Numbered from the stretch's first letter, positions 18,254 through 54,285 are shown. The stretch is DNA of 64,000 bases from Deltaproteobacteria bacterium (GCA_026417175.1 JAOADT010000001.1:38918-102917); one strand, 5' to 3'. The notes: a model not told the origin generated them from the letters alone. A program made the numbers and translations.

Positions 18254-19951
18254 TTAACTTGATTTAAGTGCTTTCAAAACCTCCTTTTTCTCAATTAAAA
18301 TCTCTGAAATCTTTTTTTCATCCTTCTCTCTTTCAGCAAATGCCAGTCTTTCAGTAAGCATTTTAAGCTTTTCTTTCATAGCACTTTTTTTTGTGTATTT
18401 TATGAAATCTTCTATAATCTTTCTTTTTGCGTCTTTTTCTAATCTCTGTGCTTCAAAGACACCGGAAACTACAAACTCTCTTATATCTTCATTTTCCAGT
18501 CTAAACAGATATCCATTTAAATCAAAAACATCTCTCTCCATCTTCGTCGCAAAGAACTCTTCCATCAGTCTTTTTAAAGTACCATCTTTTATGTAATCAA
18601 CGACTTCGCGTAACCCGGAACCATATGCGAGTTCTGGATCGTCAAGAATTGTCCCTATTAACATTTTATTCACAGGAGGCAAAATTCTTTCTTCTTCCTT
18701 AAATTCAATATTTTTTGATTTTCCCTCAATCTCATCCCAGAATATATGTTCTTCTACCCCAGTCAATTCAGAAATTCTTTTTACATATAACCTTTTGTGC
18801 ACATTATCCCTCATTTGCTCTATGTACGGCATAACTGTCCTGATAAAAGATAGTTTCTTTTGAACAGTTTCCATACCGTACTTTTCTTTATGGTACTCAA
18901 AATAGTACTCAATGATGGGCATCCTTTTCTGGATAAGAGCAGAAATACCTGAATAGCCGTTTTTTCTCGCAAATGTATCTGGGTCTTCATTTTGAGGTAA
19001 AAGAACAATCTCCCCATTCACGCCATTTGCGGAAAATGTATCTATGGCTCTCAATGCACTCTTTATTCCAGCTTCATCAGAATCGAGCATAAGTGTGATA
19101 TTCTCGGTGTAATTTTTAAGTTTCTTAATTTGCTCTTCCGTAATGGCTGTCCCAAGGGATGCAACAACGTTCTTTATCCCGCAATTGTAAAGGGAGATCA
19201 TGTCAAAGTATCCTTCTACAATTATGGCAAGATTTTTGTCCACTATATCTCTTTTTGCCTTTTCCAGCCCAAAAAGTACGCTCCGCTTTGAAAAAACCTG
19301 CGATTCTGGAGAATTTATGTACTTTGGTAGCCTATCCTTTTCTATGCTTCTACCGCCGAATCCTATTACCCTTCCATTTACATCATAGATGGGAATTACA
19401 ATCCTTCCTCTAAAAATATCCTGTATCTCCGTACCCGTTATTTTTAAGATCCCCGTTGAAAAAAATACGTCTTTAGGGATTTTACAGCTTGAAAAAAACT
19501 CACTTATGTTCTTCCCACTAAAACCTAGTTTAAACTTGTCTATTGTTTCGTTATCAATGTCCCTTTCTCTCAAATACCTTAAGGCAATCTGACTCTGTTT
19601 TAAGTTTTTATGATAAAACTCTGCAAGTTCAGATAGCGCATCATAGATCGCAAAAGTTTTTACTTTCCACTCCTGTACGGGAATCCCATACTCCTTAGAC
19701 AAACTTTCGATAGCATCATGAAAATCCATGTTTTCATACTTCATTACAAAGCTTATAACGTTACCGCCTGTTTGGCAGCCGAAACAGTAAAATAACTGTT
19801 TTTCAGGACTCACGGTAAATGATGGTGTCTTTTCTTTATGAAAAGGACACAATCCTACAAAGTTCCGACCGGTCTTTTTTAGCCTCACATATCTCGATAT
19901 GAACTCCACTATATCGACCTTCTCTAAAATCGTATCGACTGCTGTTTTCAT
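18254..19951 (-). CDS. dnaG: DNA primase DnaG
   Basis: 565 aa. Zinc-ribbon [30 protein letters not shown] and a TOPRIM region ([11 protein letters not shown]). Confidence 0.95.
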
Positions 19952-22260
19952 GTGAGTTCAACTACAGTTATCCCCGGATTTTTTTCATCTAGTTTAAAAT
20001 TTGAAACATATTTAGACTGGGAGAGATACTCTCTAACCTTTAACATGAGCTTTCCGGTACCAATGCCGTGTAAAATCGTAACCTTGTTTACGCCGTTTAA
20101 GACTGCTCTGTCCATGAATCTATCCAAACACTCAATAGCTTCTTCTACCTTCATGCCCCTTAGATTCAATTTCCACACATCCACCTTCTCTGATGTTACT
20201 TTCACCCCTGTAGTTTCATTTGTTACTCTTTCTTCAACCCGGTCTATCTTTATAAGTTTCTCCTTACCTATTCTTGTTCTTATATTTCCTATAACAACTT
20301 CACATTCTCCGGATGAATCTTCTAAATCTGAAATATAGCCCACGCTTCCTAAGTTTTTAATCTTTACAAAATCCCCGACTTTAAGCGGTTTGTCTTCTTG
20401 TTCTTTTTTATCAATACCTGATTCCCTCTTTACCTCATTCAAGATCTCCTTGGCCCTTTTTACTGAAACTTTTTCTTTTTTGGAAACTTCTCTTTCTATC
20501 TCCCTTATCCTTTCGTCCAGTATTTCGATTTTATTTTTATACCTTTCTTCGAATCTTTTTATTATCTCTTCCTTTTTTTCTTCAATTCTTCTGAGTTTGT
20601 TTTTTAGACTCAATTTTACCTGAAGAATCTCTTCCCTTTCTCTTGCCAGTTCCTCTTCCTTTTTTCTTAACGCGTCAAATATACTATACATCATATACTC
20701 CTGCTCACCCAAATATCTGATACTTTTCTCCAATATGGAATCAGGAAAACCTACGTTCTTTGCAACATTCAGTGCATTACTCATGCCAACCGTGCCATAT
20801 GTGAGTTTATAGAGAGGAACCATCCTTACCGGATCATATTCACATGCTGCATTTTTTGCGAATTCTTTGGTAAACCCATAGCCTTTGAGATGGCCTAAGT
20901 GTGTAGTAACTACTAGCTTGCATCCTTTCTCTGCAAAAGCGTCCATTATACCCATGGAAAGTGCTGATGCTTCCTGAGGGTCAGTTCCTCCTCCGATCTC
21001 ATCTATCAAAATCAGTTCACCGCCGCTCGATTCTTGGTAAATATTTTTGATGGTGATCACATGAGAGGTAAAGCTACTTAGATCCTTGGAAAAGTCCTGC
21101 TCATCACCAACGAGAGCGTAGATTCTCTTATAAAGAGGGATCTTAGGATTTATACTTGCGGGGATAAACATACCTGAGTACGCCATGAGCAAAAGTAACC
21201 CAATTGTTTTCAGTGCAACTGTCTTACCGCCGGCATTTGGTCCACTAATTATGAGAACTTTTTTTTCTTCTTCTAAAATTATGTCTATAGGAACGGTAGC
21301 ATCACCTTTGTATGTCCTCAAAAGAGGATTAACTGCATTTTTGATGTACAAATCACCATTTTCTGTCACTTCTGGCCTTACACAGCCGAAGTCTATTGAA
21401 AAGAGCGAGAGACCACAAAAGAAATCTACTTCTTTCACGACTTCCAAGTGTCTATGTAATGAACCGAGATAGGTATTAACGTATGAAGTTAATTCTCTGA
21501 GAATCCTTTCTTCCTCCTCCTTTTCCCTCTTTTCCAAAACATTTATCTCGTTGTTCAGACTTACACATTCAATAGGTTCAACAAAGGAAGTCTTTAAAGT
21601 ATGTGAGTAATCGTGAACAATTCCGTCTATAGCCTGATTGAAGTTGGGTTTCATGGGAAGAACGTATCTTCCATTCCGTATAGTAATGTAAGTATCCTGA
21701 AGTAGACTTCTAAATCTATCGCTCTCCATGAGCTTTTCGAGATATTTTTTTATTTTTGTTCTTTTTACATGGAGCTCTCTCCTTATTTCCAAAAGTTCGT
21801 AAGAAGCACTGTCTTCAACAAAGCCTTCCCGGTTTATCGTTTTTTTTATTTTTCTTTCAACCTCTGTGAGAGGATTAATAATTCCCAATATGTATGTCAA
21901 ATACCTACCTTTTTTAGGAAGCTTTTTTAGATAAGAGATTAAACCCTGAACATAGCTTAAAAAATCTTGAAGTAGCAAAAATTCTTTTGGGTCTAATACA
22001 GAATTTCCAACAGAAAGTCTTTTAAGGACGTCTCGTATATCCGGAATACCAGCTAAGGGTGGTTTTCCAAACTGAGTTATAACATCGTAAAATTCTTGCA
22101 AGATATCCTGTCTCTCTTTTATCTTCTCGAGATCGTAAAAAGGTCTAAGGTTAACGAGATCATCATCCGCATAAGAAGTCAGTAAGTATGGTTTTACAAG
22201 ATTTAAAAGCTTAAAAAAATCTAAATGATGTAAGGTATTATCAGGCATATTGTGCTTCAA
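19948..22260 (-). CDS. mutS2: MutS2 endonuclease (MutS-related protein with Smr domain)
   Basis: 770 aa. Walker A GPNAGGKT and a C-terminal Smr domain (LNLRGMKVEEAI...ILHGIGTGKL). Confidence 0.92.
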   Translation of the reverse strand: MKHNMPDNTLHHLDFFKLLNLVKPYLLTSYADDDLVNLRPFYDLEKIKERQDILQEFYDVITQFGKPPLAGIPDIRDVLKRLSVGNSVLDPKEFLLLQDFLSYVQGLISYLKKLPKKGRYLTYILGIINPLTEVERKIKKTINREGFVEDSASYELLEIRRELHVKRTKIKKYLEKLMESDRFRSLLQDTYITIRNGRYVLPMKPNFNQAIDGIVHDYSHTLKTSFVEPIECVSLNNEINVLEKREKEEEERILRELTSYVNTYLGSLHRHLEVVKEVDFFCGLSLFSIDFGCVRPEVTENGDLYIKNAVNPLLRTYKGDATVPIDIILEEEKKVLIISGPNAGGKTVALKTIGLLLLMAYSGMFIPASINPKIPLYKRIYALVGDEQDFSKDLSSFTSHVITIKNIYQESSGGELILIDEIGGGTDPQEASALSMGIMDAFAEKGCKLVVTTHLGHLKGYGFTKEFAKNAACEYDPVRMVPLYKLTYGTVGMSNALNVAKNVGFPDSILEKSIRYLGEQEYMMYSIFDALRKKEEELAREREEILQVKLSLKNKLRRIEEKKEEIIKRFEERYKNKIEILDERIREIEREVSKKEKVSVKRAKEILNEVKRESGIDKKEQEDKPLKVGDFVKIKNLGSVGYISDLEDSSGECEVVIGNIRTRIGKEKLIKIDRVEERVTNETTGVKVTSEKVDVWKLNLRGMKVEEAIECLDRFMDRAVLNGVNKVTILHGIGTGKLMLKVREYLSQSKYVSNFKLDEKNPGITVVELT

Positions 22261-49327: not shown

Positions 49328-49828
49328 CTACATCTGGGAAATAGTTAGCAATAAAGGCCAGGGGTACTCGCCAGGCTTTATTTCATCTAGTATAAACTTG
49401 TAATCCAGCTTTAACGAAAATCTTCTTTCTCCTTTCAAAATTATAACACCCCCGTCTGGTCCCATCTTTGTCTCGCCAAATTGACCTCGCACAAGTACTT
49501 CTTTAAAAATCCCTTTTTCAACTGTGTCAAAGGCAAGCACACAACCCATCCTAGAGTTTGTCGTAAGCTCTACTATTGTCGCAGCCTGAATCTCTACATA
49601 ACCCCTGCTTACATCTTCCTCAGTAATCTTCACCTTTTTCTCCTGGTGTACAATATTTGTTTTTATATAATCTTTAACAAATGCACTGACTGTCAAAGTG
49701 GTGCTCTCTCTTCTACCCTCGGCAAGTACATCATTTACTAAAAAAAATGAAGACAGAAGTAAAAAAGAGATACACAAAGCTAGCCTCCTCTGTATCATCA
49801 GCACTTTTTCTATGGCTTGGGGCTCCAC
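49328..49828 (-). CDS. Hypothetical secreted protein at the distal end of the pilus operon
   Basis: 166-aa ORF. Probable start at MIQRRLALCISFLLLSSFFLVNDVLA (49798), which gives a signal peptide. The remainder is beta-rich, with no recognised family. Confidence 0.5.
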   Translation of the reverse strand: MEPQAIEKVLMIQRRLALCISFLLLSSFFLVNDVLAEGRRESTTLTVSAFVKDYIKTNIVHQEKKVKITEEDVSRGYVEIQAATIVELTTNSRMGCVLAFDTVEKGIFKEVLVRGQFGETKMGPDGGVIILKGERRFSLKLDYKFILDEIKPGEYPWPLLLTISQM

Positions 49829-49854
49829 TAAACCAAGATCTACAAGTATTTCTC

Positions 49855-50130
49855 CTAGCTTTTTGTGAGGTCTTTTTTCTGTTCCATAAGGGCCTTCTTA
49901 ACCTTTTCCTCACTTATGAAGCCTGACCATGCGAGTAACTCCCCTACTCTAAACCCACTAAGACCCAACATGCCTTTTCCTGCTTTCTCTTCTTTCACGA
50001 GAGGGTGTTCTATGGTAAGAGGAACGGGGAGATGTACACTTTCTCCTTTCAGCAAACTAAAGATCTTAAGAATATCCATCTCGTCTTTTTGCCAGTCAAC
50101 TACTATATATTTCGACTTATTGTTCTTCAT
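49855..50130 (-). CDS. Hypothetical small protein with a C-terminal GspE/MshE-N-terminal-like helix motif
   Basis: 91 aa. RVGELLAWSGFISEEKVKKALMEQKK resembles the lGelLv..g.it.eql..AL..Qk motif of T2SS-E N-terminal domains. Confidence 0.4.
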   Translation of the reverse strand: MKNNKSKYIVVDWQKDEMDILKIFSLLKGESVHLPVPLTIEHPLVKEEKAGKGMLGLSGFRVGELLAWSGFISEEKVKKALMEQKKDLTKS

Positions 50131-50147: not shown

Positions 50148-50597
50148 TCAGTAACTAATGGTAACAGCCAATTGATCTGTGTAAAATCCCGTGCCCACCT
50201 CTTGGGTTGCAAATACTCTTCCGTAAACTTTTAAAAGAACACTGGAATTCTTTTTTACGTTTGCACGGACAGTATAAGTACCCGATGTGCCATCTCCCCA
50301 TATTCGTGTTCTTGCCGCATCAGTGTAAATGTTGTAATTTAGCATCTCTCCATACTCAACATTTCTTAATCTTCTCGGATTAAATCCGGAGTTAGAACTT
50401 GGTCCAATCGATACCTGCACGTTAGAAGTTTTATCACAATATATCGTTAAAATACCAGTATAATCTGTATGGGAAGAGGAAAGTGGATTATATTCTGAAA
50501 ACGTAAGATTCGAAGCAGTTATTGTACAGAAGCCAATGGCTTTTTCACAAATAAAAAGGAAAATAGATATAGCTAGAAAACTATTTCTCCCAAACAA
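50148..50597 (-). CDS. Spore-coat-U (SCPU) domain pilin-like protein (Csu-type minor subunit)
   Basis: 149 aa. Signal peptide. NYNIYTDAARTRIWGDG and the C-terminal ..YTDQLAVTISY are typical of SCPU/CsuA-B proteins. Confidence 0.65.
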   Translation of the reverse strand: MFGRNSFLAISIFLFICEKAIGFCTITASNLTFSEYNPLSSSHTDYTGILTIYCDKTSNVQVSIGPSSNSGFNPRRLRNVEYGEMLNYNIYTDAARTRIWGDGTSGTYTVRANVKKNSSVLLKVYGRVFATQEVGTGFYTDQLAVTISY

Positions 50598-52796
50598 TTA
50601 TTTCCCCTATATCTATGAAAGGTTCAGAATTATCTGGTATAGAAAGGTGGAAAATGTAGAGCTTTTCTCCGATTATTACTTCCCCCCTGTAGGTACCCGG
50701 ATTAAGGTCTTCTATATAAAATTCTCCTCCCCTTCCGATCAAAAACTTTACCTCTTTTTCCCCATGGCCAAGGATGGCTTCAGAAAGCTCGATAGGTTCT
50801 CCTCCTATTTTTCGCATCCTACCGGTCACCGCACATACCCTTTTCGGGATAAAATCAACGAGGGATCCACCCTTTCGTGGTACGGATAGCTCCTTTTTGT
50901 AATAGGAAAGGCTATAGTCTAAGGGTATATCCTTATCATTTACCTTTATCTCACTTATCAATCTCGATGGAAATGAAGCGATGGCTATCTTACCGTCTTT
51001 TTCAGTTTTTCCAATTTCATTATTTTCTTTGTAGATTCTTACCCCTTCCATATTGGGTACTCGAACTATCAAAAAACCATCATATACTGGTCTGGAAAGG
51101 GCAAACTCTCCTCCCGCGTAAAGTAAGCTTCCCGAACTGCTAATAGTAAGAGCCTTATTTTCATGAACAAGCGAATAAATTCCGTATCTCGAATCGTACT
51201 GTAGACGCGGTTTAATTACTGTATCTCTTTTTTCTGAGTTTACTTCTAAATAGTAACTTAATCCTTCCGCTTGAGGTGGCTTTTTTTGAATTTTAAATCT
51301 CACGTTATCTTCTCGAACACCTAATGTCAAAAAATGTTCTCCAAATTTGTAACTTAAAGAGAGAAAAGCAGTTTTCTTTTCTTTGGAGCTCAGCCCATTG
51401 ATATACAGGACAACATTTTTACTGAGGTTCCTTGAGTAGGAGCCGGAAAGTGTAGCTATTTTTCTAATCTCGTCTCTTATGTAACCCAAAGAAAAAGATC
51501 CAATCTCTGATTTACCGAAACTCAAAGATGATGCTGCAAAAATTCCACGTTTGTCCCACTGTTGTACAACCGTAGCATAATTCTTTTCTATCCAGGCTAT
51601 ATTGAGATCTATCCCGAAATTCTTCGTAAAAAACGAGTAACTTGTCGATAAGCCATAACTTTGATTCCTTCCCCATAAACTAAATGAGGTGTTTATATCG
51701 AAAGAACCGTATAAAGTTGAGATAGTGATTCCTGGACCGAGATTTCCTAACTTGTGTTTCCACTCGCCTCTTAGCCCTGCCGTTAAATTTTTATTGATTC
51801 CGTATCTGTGGATAAATGAAAACACTGGATCTGAGTATTTCTCGCCTTTTTTTAGAAAACCCAAATTATAGCTAAAATCATGTAGTCCCTTTTGTAAGTT
51901 GGATTCACAAACATAAAATGGAAGATAAATGGTCTCTTCTCTTCCAAAAACATCTTTTAAGGTGATCTCAACGTTATGCCTTCCCGTAGACCCTATGATG
52001 TCAGTTAGGCTGAAAGTTCCTGGAGAAAGTTTTTCTTTTTTAACCAAGTATCCGTCTAGAGATACTATCACTTCTGAAGGATATTTAGCGTATCCTTCAT
52101 AGCTAAAAGGCGTTGTCTTAATAAAATACGGATCAAAAGAGTAGTCTTTTGCGTAACTTATTCCTAGAAATGGAAAGCTCGAGGATAGAGCTTTACCAAT
52201 GAAATACCCATCGCCTATTGCTAGGGTTTCATATTTTTTGGGGTTTTCAAGATAAAACGTAGTATAAGTTCTTTTGAAACTTTTAACACCTTCAGAATTT
52301 TCATATACCGAACTACAAAGAAAAAGAAAGTCTCGAAATCTGATACCCAATTCCTGAGGAAACACCAGCTTCTCAACCTGGTTTCCCCTTGTAACATTTG
52401 CTCCATAATTAAAAAAGAAGCTTTTCGAATCTTCCGGTGGGAGTTTTTTTCTTTTAGGTGACACTTCGATTGTTTTTTTTGAAAGTAGACCTGGTGGAAA
52501 CTCAATATGAAGCATGGAGGTTTTTTCGTTTATATGCCATACTACACCTTCGATCTCTCTTAGTGAAACGTACTCTTCAAAAAATTTATTCTTTTTCGGT
52601 TCGTTTACACCCATTTTATAGAGATCCTCAGTCCTTATGTAAAATTCTTCATTTCTTTTCAAAATAAAGAAGTCCCCTTTTTTTTCCCATTCACTTCAAC
52701 CCCTAGAACAAGAACTTCTTCCGCAAAGCTTCGAGCTACCGCCAATAAGAAGAGAACGACCAGAAGTTTAATTCTCCAAGTGAATCCATCTTTCAA
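50581..52796 (-). CDS. Fimbrial outer-membrane usher (CsuD-like), interrupted by a -1 frameshift at an A8 tract
   Basis: The large ORF 50581..52662 has no signal peptide, and its 'M' is a TTG artefact. A 45-codon ORF begins at TTG 52796, with GAGGA 8 nt upstream. It encodes MKDGFTWRIKLLVVLFLLAVARSFA|EEVLVLGVEVNGKKKG and stops at 52659..52661. A shift of -1 within GGGAAAAAAAAGGGG (52674..52688) joins it to ...DFFILKRNEEFYIRTEDL... Confidence 0.65.
52678..52685 (-). other. A8 homopolymer / A_AAA_AAG slippery heptamer at the usher frameshift site
   Basis: The plus strand has T8 at 52678..52685. In the upstream frame the minus strand reads GGG AAA AAA AAG GGG. Confidence 0.7.
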
Positions 52797-53511
52797 TTTT
52801 GAAGTCCTCATCAGACCGGACCACAACTTGTACCTTTGAAAGCTCGCGAGCTTTAATATGATCTATCCCAAAGGAAAAATGTTTTCGTTTTCCAGGCAGT
52901 ATATACCAGCCGTTCTCACGTGAAGATATGATTTCTTCCCCGGATTTATTTAAACCCCGTATTTTTACTTCATTCGCTATAAAATGAGTATTACCCGTAT
53001 TAGAGACAGCTATAACAAGTTTATTGTCTATTATTTCTGCAATCTCTACATTGCCTGATCTCTTTTTGTAATAAGGTGACAAGAATACGGGGATGGATAC
53101 TCTAAGGAGGATACTTACGGTAGCTCCATGTTTTATGTCAGATTTTATCGGAGGTAATTCCTCTACCATTATCCTGTATGTACCCTCTTTTTCAAAGGTA
53201 CTCTTTTGGCAACCAATTCTTATTACTTTTTCCTCGGAAGGTTTTAGTTGGACAATCTTTGGAAAGATAACGATATCGTTTGTTTCCTCATAAATATCAT
53301 TTCCGTTGTCATCCTGTTCCCAAGAATATACTCTAATTTGTATACTGAGATCTTTGGTGTCTACATTCTTTATAGTAAGTTTGTCAGTTAGATTTTTAGA
53401 ATCTAGAAAAATCTTGACAGGATATATATCAAAAACTGCGCATTTCACATCAAAGCAGATCACAAAGTTAATGAGAATTAGGAAAATAAATAAGGTACGT
53501 TTTTTTACCAT
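52768..53511 (-). CDS. Periplasmic pilus chaperone (PapD-like / CsuC-like)
   Basis: 247 aa. Signal peptide, then an Ig-like fold pattern (VFDIYPVKIFL...LTIKN...IRVYSW...FPKIVQLKPSEEKVIRI). Confidence 0.7.
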   Translation of the reverse strand: MVKKRTLFIFLILINFVICFDVKCAVFDIYPVKIFLDSKNLTDKLTIKNVDTKDLSIQIRVYSWEQDDNGNDIYEETNDIVIFPKIVQLKPSEEKVIRIGCQKSTFEKEGTYRIMVEELPPIKSDIKHGATVSILLRVSIPVFLSPYYKKRSGNVEIAEIIDNKLVIAVSNTGNTHFIANEVKIRGLNKSGEEIISSRENGWYILPGKRKHFSFGIDHIKARELSKVQVVVRSDEDFKIERWIHLEN

Positions 53512-53560
53512 AGATTATCCTCCTTTGATAATAAGAAGAAAGGGGGTGTTTACCCCCTTT

Positions 53561-54025
53561 TTAGTATGAAACGGTCGCTGTGAGCGTCCTTGTGTAGTTT
53601 CCCGTCCCCACATCTTGCTGGGCAGGGATCCTACCGTAGGCCCCTATTTGGATTGGAGAAGAATTCTGAGCCTGTCCCGTAATTCCAGGGGAGTTGTTTG
53701 GAAAAGCCTGGGTACGAGCTGCATCTCTGTATATCTCGAAACTTAGCTGCTCGTTCTCCGGCCCGATCATAGTTCTCGTCCCGGAGATGTAAACGTCATA
53801 ATTAGTTCTTTTGACACACTGAATGGTAATGTTCCCATCACCATCTTTCGGGTTGGAACTCGTAGGGTCATATTCTCCAAAATTGATATCTCCTACGCTA
53901 GATATTCTGCATTTTGCCGAGACACTCGCAGTAACTTGCATGTTTGCAGTGTCAGTCGCTGCAAGGGCGAAATAAGGAGTCAAAACGATCCCGACTAAAA
54001 AGATTACCATTAGATGCTTTTTCAT
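53561..54025 (-). CDS. SCPU-domain major pilin-like protein (CsuA/B-like)
   Basis: MKKHLMVIFLVGIVLTPYFALA signal peptide. FEIYRDAARTQAF and the C-terminal YTRTLTATVSY. The ATG at 54025 is preceded by GGGAGGG. Confidence 0.65.
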   Translation of the reverse strand: MKKHLMVIFLVGIVLTPYFALAATDTANMQVTASVSAKCRISSVGDINFGEYDPTSSNPKDGDGNITIQCVKRTNYDVYISGTRTMIGPENEQLSFEIYRDAARTQAFPNNSPGITGQAQNSSPIQIGAYGRIPAQQDVGTGNYTRTLTATVSY

Positions 54026-54285
54026 ATTACCCTCCCTTAGCAATTTTTTTATAATTTTTTGAGCCCTTACTGACTTCCTTTACCTCCTTTCTGGGCCTTT
54101 ATCTGTCCAATATTAGTCGAAAAGTGTCTTAGGGCAATAATATGTGTCCGATACCTGATAGAGATAGCCTTATACCTTATAAATTTTTAGGGTATATAGC
54201 TTGATGAAAAAGTGAAAAATTTCTTTTTTTACAATTTGTATTGACACAGAATAATATTGAAGGTTACTCTTTACTTAAGTTAACT

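What the first reader, a model, noticed from the sequence alone, without database searches (positions are those of the whole stretch)
52659..52796. Usher gene split at an A8 tract that is also an A_AAA_AAG slippery site: phase variation, programmed -1 frameshift or homopolymer error
The usher signal peptide and first beta-strand (MKDGFTWRIKLLVVLFLLAVARSFA-EEVLVLGVEVNGKKKG) are encoded from TTG 52796, which has a GAGGA SD 8 nt upstream. They are in a frame that terminates at 52659..52661. The rest of the usher (from ...DFFILKRNEEFYIRTEDL) is in the -1 frame. The junction is GGG-AAA-AAA-AAG-GGG (T8 on the plus strand, 52678..52685).

Three explanations are possible:
- One extra A would fuse the frames. 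That is the behaviour of slipped-strand phase-variable fimbrial genes.
- In the upstream frame the sequence is exactly the A_AAA_AAG heptamer used for programmed -1 ribosomal frameshifting in dnaX and IS elements.
- A sequencing homopolymer error would give the same picture.

Either biological option would give ON/OFF or stoichiometric control of pilus assembly at the usher level.
Basis: seen in the sequence. Interest (0 to 1): 0.6.

Follow-up and report, generated by a model that had tools for sequence, protein, structure and literature searches.

The report
Pilus usher gene broken at A8 run
The only pilus-assembly pore (usher) gene of this uncultured anaerobe is split by a missing A in a lysine-codon run, and a second gene of the same operon is split the same way, so this looks like ordinary gene decay in a lineage without mismatch repair, not programmed recoding.

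Summary
On the minus strand, the usher signal peptide and first strand end at TGA 52661-52659. The rest of the usher (to 50581) is in the -1 frame. The junction is an A8 run at 52678-52685. Reading across it gives NGKKKGDFFILK, which aligns without a gap to intact homologues.

The "slippery heptamer" is not evidence of recoding:
- Any AAA-AAA-AAA-G run that loses one A becomes A_AAA_AAG in that phase.
- 802 such in-phase heptamers sit in intact ORFs of this genome.
- A tRNA-Lys(CUU) is present.
- The downstream hairpin is unexceptional.
- The nearest homologue (43% identity) has no A run at this site.

The last gene of the operon (49328-50130) is also split by a one-base deficit at an A6 or A5 run.

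The assembly is Illumina/Nextera and clean. None of 391 long A/T runs inside conserved genes breaks a frame. The genome also holds multi-lesion pseudogenes and lacks MutS1 and MutL.

My odds:
- Real deletions in a decaying or switched-off sigma-type chaperone-usher operon: about 0.6.
- Assembly artefact: about 0.2.
- Evolved phase switch: about 0.1.
- Ribosomal or transcriptional recoding: under 0.1.

The parts
53561..54043 (-). First pilin gene (SCPU / spore-coat-protein-U domain subunit, 160 aa), intact
   Evidence: PF05229, E 7e-26. Same position as the 154-aa SCPU gene in homologue locus L006.
53539..53560 (-). G+C-rich hairpin followed by a T-rich tail, just after the pilin gene; terminator- or attenuator-like
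   Evidence: Consensus scan only. Its function is inferred.
52768..53511 (-). PapD-like periplasmic chaperone gene (247 aa), intact
   Evidence: PF00345, E 6e-16.
52659..52811 (-). Usher 5' fragment in frame 0: probable start ATG 52811 (alternative TTG 52796), signal peptide, first beta-strand, then premature TGA at 52661-52659
   Evidence: Aligns to the N-terminus of the intact usher P0004.
52678..52685 (-). A8 run (T8 on the plus strand), the frame junction; contains A_AAA_AAG in the upstream frame
   Evidence: One base short of the length that keeps the frame and the family spacing LN-x4-GDFF.
50581..52695 (-). Usher body in the -1 frame (704 codons open). It has no signal peptide of its own.
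   Evidence: PF00577. 43% identity over 99% of its length to the intact 735-aa usher P0004.
50148..50597 (-). Second SCPU-domain subunit gene (149 aa), intact
   Evidence: PF05229, E 1e-27.
49855..50130 (-). N-terminal fragment (91 aa) of the last operon gene, ending at TAG 49857-49855
   Evidence: Matches residues of about 60-90 of the intact 275-aa ORF of L006.
49860..49878 (-). Second frame junction: A6 run at 49873-49878 and A5 run at 49860-49864. A one-base deficit in one of them shifts the gene to the -1 frame.
   Evidence: With either site the repaired length equals that of the homologue.
49328..49897 (-). C-terminal fragment of the last operon gene, in the -1 frame
   Evidence: tblastn against the L006 275-aa protein: 42% identity, E 4e-54. 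All seven homologues found are single ORFs of 275-369 aa.

Best explanation
This is a genuine one-base deletion in a run of three AAA lysine codons (A9 to A8) at about codon 47 of the genome's only usher gene. It was produced by replication slippage in a lineage that appears to lack MutS1-MutL mismatch repair. The deletion cuts the signal peptide and first strand off the pore, so the sigma-type (SCPU/Csu-like) chaperone-usher pilus cannot be assembled. A second, independent one-base deficit at a short A run breaks the last gene of the same operon. The operon is therefore switched off and at an early stage of decay in the sequenced population. The A_AAA_AAG heptamer is simply what remains when AAA-AAA-AAA-G loses one A. 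Shown here: the two frame breaks, the homology across both, the cleanness of the assembly elsewhere, and the missing repair genes. Inferred: that the deletions are real in the DNA and that no meaningful amount of full-length usher is made.
For: 1.
2. A second -1 break lies in the neighbouring gene at 49328-50130. Its homologues are single ORFs.
3. The platform is Illumina/Nextera: mosaic-end adapters sit at four contig ends.
4. A tblastn scan used 1158 ORFs of a same-family relative (median 72% identity). Of these, 981 have matches of at least 50% identity, and only two or three show true frame splits, none at a long A/T run.
5. 391 A/T runs of 8 or more bases, 40 of them 9-10 long, lie inside uninterrupted alignments.
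6. Other genes here are clear pseudogenes with several lesions. An OYE-like gene on contig C8 has a TAA nonsense codon plus an A8 frameshift. An HDAC-like gene on C77 has two frameshifts plus a TAA.
7. The only MutS-family gene is a MutS2. The MutL domain is absent from this genome and from all 30 relatives searched.
8. No other usher exists in the genome.
9. There is a precedent: loss of one A from an A8 run in the Salmonella Enteritidis fimbrial gene sefD (PMC8538453).
Against: Raw reads could not be inspected, so the A8 call is not independently verified. No near-identical strain exists in any collection searched. Apart from the two frameshifts, the operon has no nonsense codon or larger deletion, so any decay is very recent, or the lesions are not real. 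The sole glmM copy, normally an essential gene, carries a one-base insertion at a non-homopolymer site, which shows that sporadic indel errors may exist in this assembly.
Confidence: 0.6

Rival explanations
1. Assembly or consensus artefact: the true sequence is A9 and the usher is intact. The MAG consensus dropped one A, for example because of low coverage or a mixed strain population.
For: This is a 97-contig MAG. glmM, usually essential and present here as a single copy, has a one-base insertion, so sporadic indel errors are plausible. In a population without mismatch repair, reads at an A8/A9 run may be mixed.
Against: The library is Illumina/Nextera. None of 391 long A/T runs in conserved genes is frame-broken, and A9/A10 runs are called in frame 40 times. 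This explanation needs a second independent error 2.8 kb away at a run of only 5-6 A. At the observed rate of roughly 0.2-0.4% split genes, two errors in one six-gene operon is very unlikely unless errors cluster locally.
Confidence: 0.2
2. Evolved phase-variable (contingency) switch: the A run in the 5' coding region flips between A8 (OFF) and A9 (ON) by replication slippage, giving heritable, reversible control of piliation at the usher level.
For: The run lies at about codon 47 of about 743, the typical place for such switches. A9 restores the frame exactly. Without MutS1/MutL, slippage would be frequent. Pilus genes in Bifidobacterium breve are switched in this way at a G run (PMC9187656).
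Against: The run is not special. There are 937 A/T runs of 8 or more bases in 2.1 Mb, and 540 sense-strand A8 runs inside ORFs. A second frameshift at a short, poorly reversible A5/A6 run disables another operon gene. The nearest homologue has only AAAA at this site. No length polymorphism could be examined.
Confidence: 0.1
3. Programmed -1 ribosomal frameshifting on A_AAA_AAG, as in E. coli dnaX or IS3-family transposases. A fraction of ribosomes would slip and make full-length usher, setting its stoichiometry.
For: The heptamer is in the correct phase. An 11-bp AU-rich hairpin starts 5 nt downstream. The trans-frame product has the family's exact spacing.
Against: The phase follows automatically from deleting one A in AAA-AAA-AAA-G. 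The heptamer occurs in phase 802 times in ORFs, 2.4-fold more than codon usage predicts, so it is not avoided. The hairpin (-8.5 kcal/mol) is only at the 15th percentile of regions downstream of those 745 ordinary heptamers, and the wider region folds no better than shuffles (z -0.57). The genome has a tRNA-Lys(CUU), which is expected to hold AAG firmly; high slippage in E. coli depends on having a single tRNA-Lys (PMC5009743). The site is not conserved in homologues. dnaX here has no shift site. The zero-frame product would be a useless peptide of about 50 aa. The second broken gene has no canonical heptamer.
Confidence: 0.04
4. Rescue by transcriptional slippage: RNA polymerase adds an extra A on the A8/T8 template in some transcripts, as in Thermus dnaX, Shigella mxiE or Buchnera poly(A) genes, giving a low level of in-frame mRNA.
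For: Slippage on A/T runs is a general property of RNA polymerase. The organism appears to belong to a thermophilic branch (earlier notes, untested). Some in-frame mRNA is physically likely.
Against: Documented productive cases use runs of 9 or more (PMC5009743), and this run is 8. With 540 sense-strand A8 runs in ORFs, efficient slippage at A8 would damage hundreds of proteins. It cannot explain the A5/A6 break. No RNA data were available.
Confidence: 0.04

Closest known systems
Sigma-type ('archaic', SCPU/Csu-like) chaperone-usher pili, e.g. Acinetobacter baumannii CsuA/BABCDE
   Same: SCPU-domain subunits, a PapD-like chaperone and a PF00577 usher sit in one operon. A homologue is named 'sigma-fimbria biogenesis outer membrane usher' (P0013).
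   Different: The usher is only about 30-35% identical to named homologues and is frame-broken. The last gene is an uncharacterised protein of about 270 aa (weak DUF4388 match) instead of a CsuE-type tip adhesin. The host is an anaerobic Syntrophorhabdia-like MAG.
Salmonella Enteritidis sefD (A8 run, single-A deletion) and usher pseudogenes in host-restricted Salmonella
   Same: Loss of one A from an A8 run inside a chaperone-usher fimbrial operon disrupts the gene (PMC8538453). Fimbrial pseudogenes arising from frameshifts are common (PMC3373541).
   Different: Those cases are documented across many sequenced strains. Here there is one MAG and no strain comparison.
Bifidobacterium breve sortase-dependent pilus genes interrupted at a G run
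   Same: An interrupted pilus gene that might be a pseudogene, a recoding site or a switch (PMC5009743). It was resolved as an ON/OFF replication-slippage switch (PMC9187656).
   Different: That is a different pilus type with a G run, and the switch was shown by deep sequencing. Here polymorphism is untested and a second lesion is present.
E. coli dnaX / IS3-family A_AAA_AAG programmed -1 frameshift
   Same: The same heptamer in the same phase.
   Different: There is no conserved stimulator and no conservation of the site. tRNA-Lys(CUU) is present and the heptamer is ubiquitous in this genome.

Membership tests
Sigma-type (SCPU) chaperone-usher pilus operon | Outer-membrane usher (PF00577) | tested here: met
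   E 7e-17 on the -1-frame body. 99% coverage against intact ushers.
Sigma-type (SCPU) chaperone-usher pilus operon | PapD-like periplasmic chaperone | tested here: met
   PF00345, E 6e-16.
Sigma-type (SCPU) chaperone-usher pilus operon | SCPU-domain pilin subunits | tested here: met
   PF05229 in two genes, E 7e-26 and 1e-27.
Sigma-type (SCPU) chaperone-usher pilus operon | Usher encoded as one ORF with its own signal peptide (needed for function) | tested here: not met
   The signal peptide and the body are in different frames.
Programmed -1 ribosomal frameshift site (dnaX / IS3 type) | X_XXY_YYZ heptamer in the zero frame | tested here: met
   A_AAA_AAG at 52677-52683. It is an automatic consequence of the deletion, and 802 other in-phase copies exist.
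Programmed -1 ribosomal frameshift site (dnaX / IS3 type) | Stimulatory downstream structure 5-9 nt away, or an upstream internal SD | tested here: inconclusive
   There is an 11-bp AU-rich hairpin 5 nt downstream at -8.5 kcal/mol. It falls at the 15th percentile of 745 ordinary heptamer contexts, and the region has z -0.57. Upstream there is only a weak AGGGG about 15 nt away (read by eye).
Programmed -1 ribosomal frameshift site (dnaX / IS3 type) | Shift site and frame break conserved in homologues | tested here: not met
   All five homologues read are single-frame here. The nearest has CCA-AAA-GGC at the site.
Programmed -1 ribosomal frameshift site (dnaX / IS3 type) | Weak AAG decoding (a single tRNA-Lys UUU), as in E. 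coli | tested here: not met
   Both tRNA-Lys(UUU) and tRNA-Lys(CUU) genes were found.
Homopolymer phase-variable contingency locus | Repeat tract in the 5' coding region whose length change toggles the frame | tested here: met
   The A8 run is at about codon 47, and A9 restores the frame.
Homopolymer phase-variable contingency locus | Tract longer than, or otherwise distinct from, the genomic background | tested here: not met
   There are 835 A8/T8 and 102 longer runs in the genome, and 540 sense-strand A8 runs in ORFs.
Homopolymer phase-variable contingency locus | Tract-length polymorphism within a population or among strains | not testable with these tools
No near-identical sequence exists in any collection.
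Homopolymer phase-variable contingency locus | Rest of the system intact, so that switching restores function | tested here: not met
   A second frameshift lies in the last operon gene. Whether that gene is needed for piliation is unknown.
Productive transcriptional slippage site | Run of at least 9 A or T (documented bacterial cases) | tested here: not met
   The run is 8. The criterion is taken from PMC5009743.

The most novel reading that the evidence does not exclude
In an order-wide lineage without MutS1-MutL repair, the hundreds of A8/A9 lysine runs may act as accidental contingency loci. On this reading the pilus usher toggles between A8 and A9 in the population, and low-level ribosomal or transcriptional slippage on A_AAA_AAG leaks a little usher in OFF cells. 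That would make a noisy, two-layer control of piliation in an uncultured syntroph.
Probability: 0.12. Interest if true: 0.45.

Novelty: new member of a known kind. Interest (0 to 1): 0.15.

Why it matters
The finding itself matters little: it is one more fimbrial gene inactivated by homopolymer slippage. It does have three practical uses. First, it shows that an in-phase A_AAA_AAG at a frame break cannot be read as a recoding signal in an AT-rich, lysine-rich genome. Second, annotators should mark the 693-aa 'usher' as a pseudogene fragment that lacks its signal peptide. Third, it pointed to the apparent absence of canonical mismatch repair across this whole order, which would shape how all homopolymer frame breaks in these MAGs should be interpreted.

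Tried and rejected
2. I looked for other strains or independent assemblies. The search for related loci, two exact-pattern scans allowing A6-A10 in metagenome and genome contigs and exact-protein look-ups of the chaperone and the 693-aa ORF all found nothing.
3. A homology-free, genome-wide frameshift screen based on adjacent ORF pairs lacking an SD plus start codon was too noisy to use. I replaced it with a tblastn scan using a relative's ORFs.
4. I screened frame-switch signatures at all runs of 8 or more bases. Nearly all were ordinary gene boundaries. Only the usher, the C8 OYE-like pseudogene and one unclear case on contig C56 remained.
5. Pfam on the second broken gene and its intact homologue gave only sub-threshold hits (DUF4388). 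My impression that its N-terminus resembles an MshEN/T2SSE_N motif is unverified.
6. dnaX was checked as a possible in-genome precedent for recoding and has no shift site.
7. NucS as an alternative repair system gave only a sub-threshold match to a 125-aa ORF.

Full report
**1. The observation**

The finding is accurate. On the minus strand the sequence reads ...GTG AAT GGG AAA AAA AAG GGG ACT TCT TTA TTT TGA.
- The A8 run is at 52678-52685.
- The upstream frame stops at 52661-52659.
- The -1 frame is open from 52695 to the stop at 50581. It encodes a 704-residue usher body that matches Pfam Usher PF00577.

A read-through N-terminus aligns without a gap across the junction to the closest intact homologue (P0004, 735 aa, 43% identity). 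The aligned stretches are VEVNGKKKGDFFILK and IELNREPKGDFFVLK, with E 2e-20. Other homologues share the spacing LN-x4-G(D/E)FF. The two pieces are therefore one gene, one base short of being in frame.

One refinement concerns the start codon. The in-frame ATG at 52811 gives the same 44-nt overlap with the chaperone gene as in homologue locus L006. It is a better start than TTG 52796, although GAGGA does lie 8 nt before that TTG.

**2. Context**

The locus is a sigma-type (SCPU/Csu-like) chaperone-usher operon on the minus strand:
- SCPU pilin, 53561-54043.
- A hairpin with a T-rich tail, 53539-53560.
- PapD-like chaperone, 52768-53511.
- The split usher.
- A second SCPU subunit, 50148-50597.
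- A final gene of unknown family.

The same gene order occurs in L006. This is the only usher in the genome. Earlier notes of this scan place the genome among thermophilic Syntrophorhabdia-like Desulfobacterota. I did not test that placement.

**3.

The final gene is split into a 91-aa ORF (49855-50130) and a -1-frame continuation (49328-49897). tblastn with the intact 275-aa L006 protein gives 42% identity and E 4e-54 for the continuation. The N-terminal piece matches the preceding residues.

The only place the frames can join is GAACAGAAAAAAGACCTCACAAAAAGCTAG. This contains an A6 run (49873-49878) and an A5 run (49860-49864). One more base in either restores exactly the homologue's length. 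All seven database homologues are single ORFs of 275-369 aa.

**4. Is the assembly at fault?**

- Nextera mosaic-end adapters sit at four contig ends, so the data are Illumina short reads.
- I fetched 1.32 Mb of a same-family relative and ran its 1158 ORFs against this genome with tblastn. Median identity was 72%, and 981 ORFs had matches of at least 50% identity.
- Of the seven frame-split signals in that scan (six queries), three came from spurious queries. The real ones are listed below, and none is at a long A/T run.
  - An HDAC-like gene with two frameshifts and a TAA nonsense codon, which is a true pseudogene.
  - glmM with a one-base insertion at a non-homopolymer site.
  - A histidine-kinase/receiver junction that may be a natural split.
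- 391 A/T runs of 8 or more bases, including 40 of length 9-10, lie inside uninterrupted alignments. Long runs are therefore called correctly.
- A screen of all runs of 8 or more bases with a frame-switch signature added one more case. It is an OYE-like gene on contig C8 with both a TAA nonsense codon (DEYGG*LENR) and an A8 frameshift, again a genuine pseudogene.

Split genes therefore make up roughly 0.2-0.4% of conserved genes. Two independent errors within one six-gene accessory operon would be very unlikely unless errors cluster locally. Multi-lesion pseudogenes, by contrast, are demonstrably present. The glmM lesion is a caution that sporadic assembly indels may exist.

**5. Is it recoding?**

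Deleting one A from GGG-AAA-AAA-AAA-GGG necessarily yields GGG-AAA-AAA-AAG-GGG. That is A_AAA_AAG in the canonical phase, so the heptamer carries no independent information. Six further points weigh against recoding.
- In the approximate ORF set (1999 ORFs) the in-phase heptamer occurs 802 times against 334 expected from codon usage. It is not avoided.
- The downstream 11-bp AU-rich hairpin (-8.5 kcal/mol, 5 nt away) ranks at the 15th percentile of the 745 ordinary heptamer contexts. The wider region is no more structured than shuffles, with z -0.57.
- The genome encodes both tRNA-Lys(UUU) and tRNA-Lys(CUU). The high slipperiness of this heptamer in E. coli is attributed to its single tRNA-Lys. 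Thermus, with two, uses transcriptional slippage on A9 instead (PMC5009743).
- The nearest homologue has CCA-AAA-GGC at the site, and all five homologues whose sequences were read are single-frame there.
- dnaX in this genome has no shift site.
- The second broken gene has no canonical heptamer.

Transcriptional slippage is documented for runs of 9 or more. With 540 sense-strand A8 runs in ORFs, efficient slippage at A8 would be harmful genome-wide.

**6. Why A runs?**

The only MutS-family protein is a MutS2, with MutS_III, MutS_V, MSSS and Smr domains, at window 19948-22260. The MutL domain PF01119 is absent from this genome and from all 30 sampled relatives of the order, while 11 of 14 control genomes have it. 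NucS is not convincingly present.

Without MutS1-MutL, slippage intermediates at homopolymers go uncorrected. A-run indels should then dominate the mutational spectrum. The homopolymer length distribution collapses after 8-9 bases, which is consistent with strong selection against longer runs.

**7. Verdict**

The best-supported reading (about 0.6) is a real slippage deletion. It has switched off the sole chaperone-usher pilus operon, which is beginning to decay.

An A8-to-A9 reversion is physically possible, so some ON/OFF heterogeneity may exist. Nothing marks this run as an evolved switch (about 0.1). Assembly artefact stays at about 0.2 because reads were unavailable. Programmed ribosomal frameshifting and productive transcriptional slippage together are below 0.1.

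Close precedents are:
- The single-A deletion in the A8 run of Salmonella sefD, and frameshifted fimbrial pseudogenes more generally.
- The interrupted Bifidobacterium pilus genes, later shown to be replication-slippage switches.

This is an ordinary finding and I score it low.

Noticed in passing
window 49328-50130 (minus strand): The last gene of the pilus operon is split by a -1 frame break at an A6 (49873-49878) or A5 (49860-49864) run. It is a homologue of a 275-aa ORF in L006 and belongs to an uncharacterised family of 275-369 aa with weak DUF4388 matches.
   Followed up: yes
window 19948-22260 (minus strand); whole genome and 30 relatives: The only MutS-family gene is a MutS2 (Smr). The MutL domain PF01119 is absent from this genome and from all 30 relatives sampled (21 genera), and there is no convincing NucS. 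Canonical mismatch repair appears to be missing order-wide.
   Followed up: partly
G000 contig C22:123717-125064 (outside the window): The sole glmM (phosphoglucosamine mutase, normally essential) carries a one-base insertion at AACAGACCTG relative to the same-family genome G001. This is either a sporadic assembly error or an unexplained real lesion.
   Followed up: partly
G000 contig C8:~14200-15700 and C77:88784-90007 (outside the window): There are two multi-lesion pseudogenes. One is an OYE-like gene with a TAA nonsense codon (DEYGG*LENR) plus an A8 frameshift. The other is an HDAC-like gene with two frameshifts plus a TAA nonsense codon.
   Followed up: partly
whole genome: A/T homopolymer counts fall about 0.4-fold per added base up to length 8 (835 runs of 8). 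They then collapse to 99 runs of 9 and 3 of 10. In-phase A_AAA_AAG heptamers are 2.4-fold over-represented in ORFs.
   Followed up: partly
G000 contigs C41, C42, C56 and C88 (ends): Untrimmed Nextera mosaic-end adapter sequence (AGATGTGTATAAGAGACAG) remains at four contig ends of the deposited assembly.
   Followed up: yes
window 53539-53560 (minus strand): A 9-bp G+C-rich hairpin with a T-rich tail lies between the pilin and chaperone genes. It could be an attenuator that sets the pilin-to-assembly-protein ratio.
   Followed up: no
G000 contig C33:~29590-29690 (outside the window): A hybrid histidine kinase that is one 1013-aa ORF in relative G001 is split here, between the kinase and receiver domains, into two frames. 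It is unclear whether this is a frameshift or a natural two-gene arrangement.
   Followed up: no
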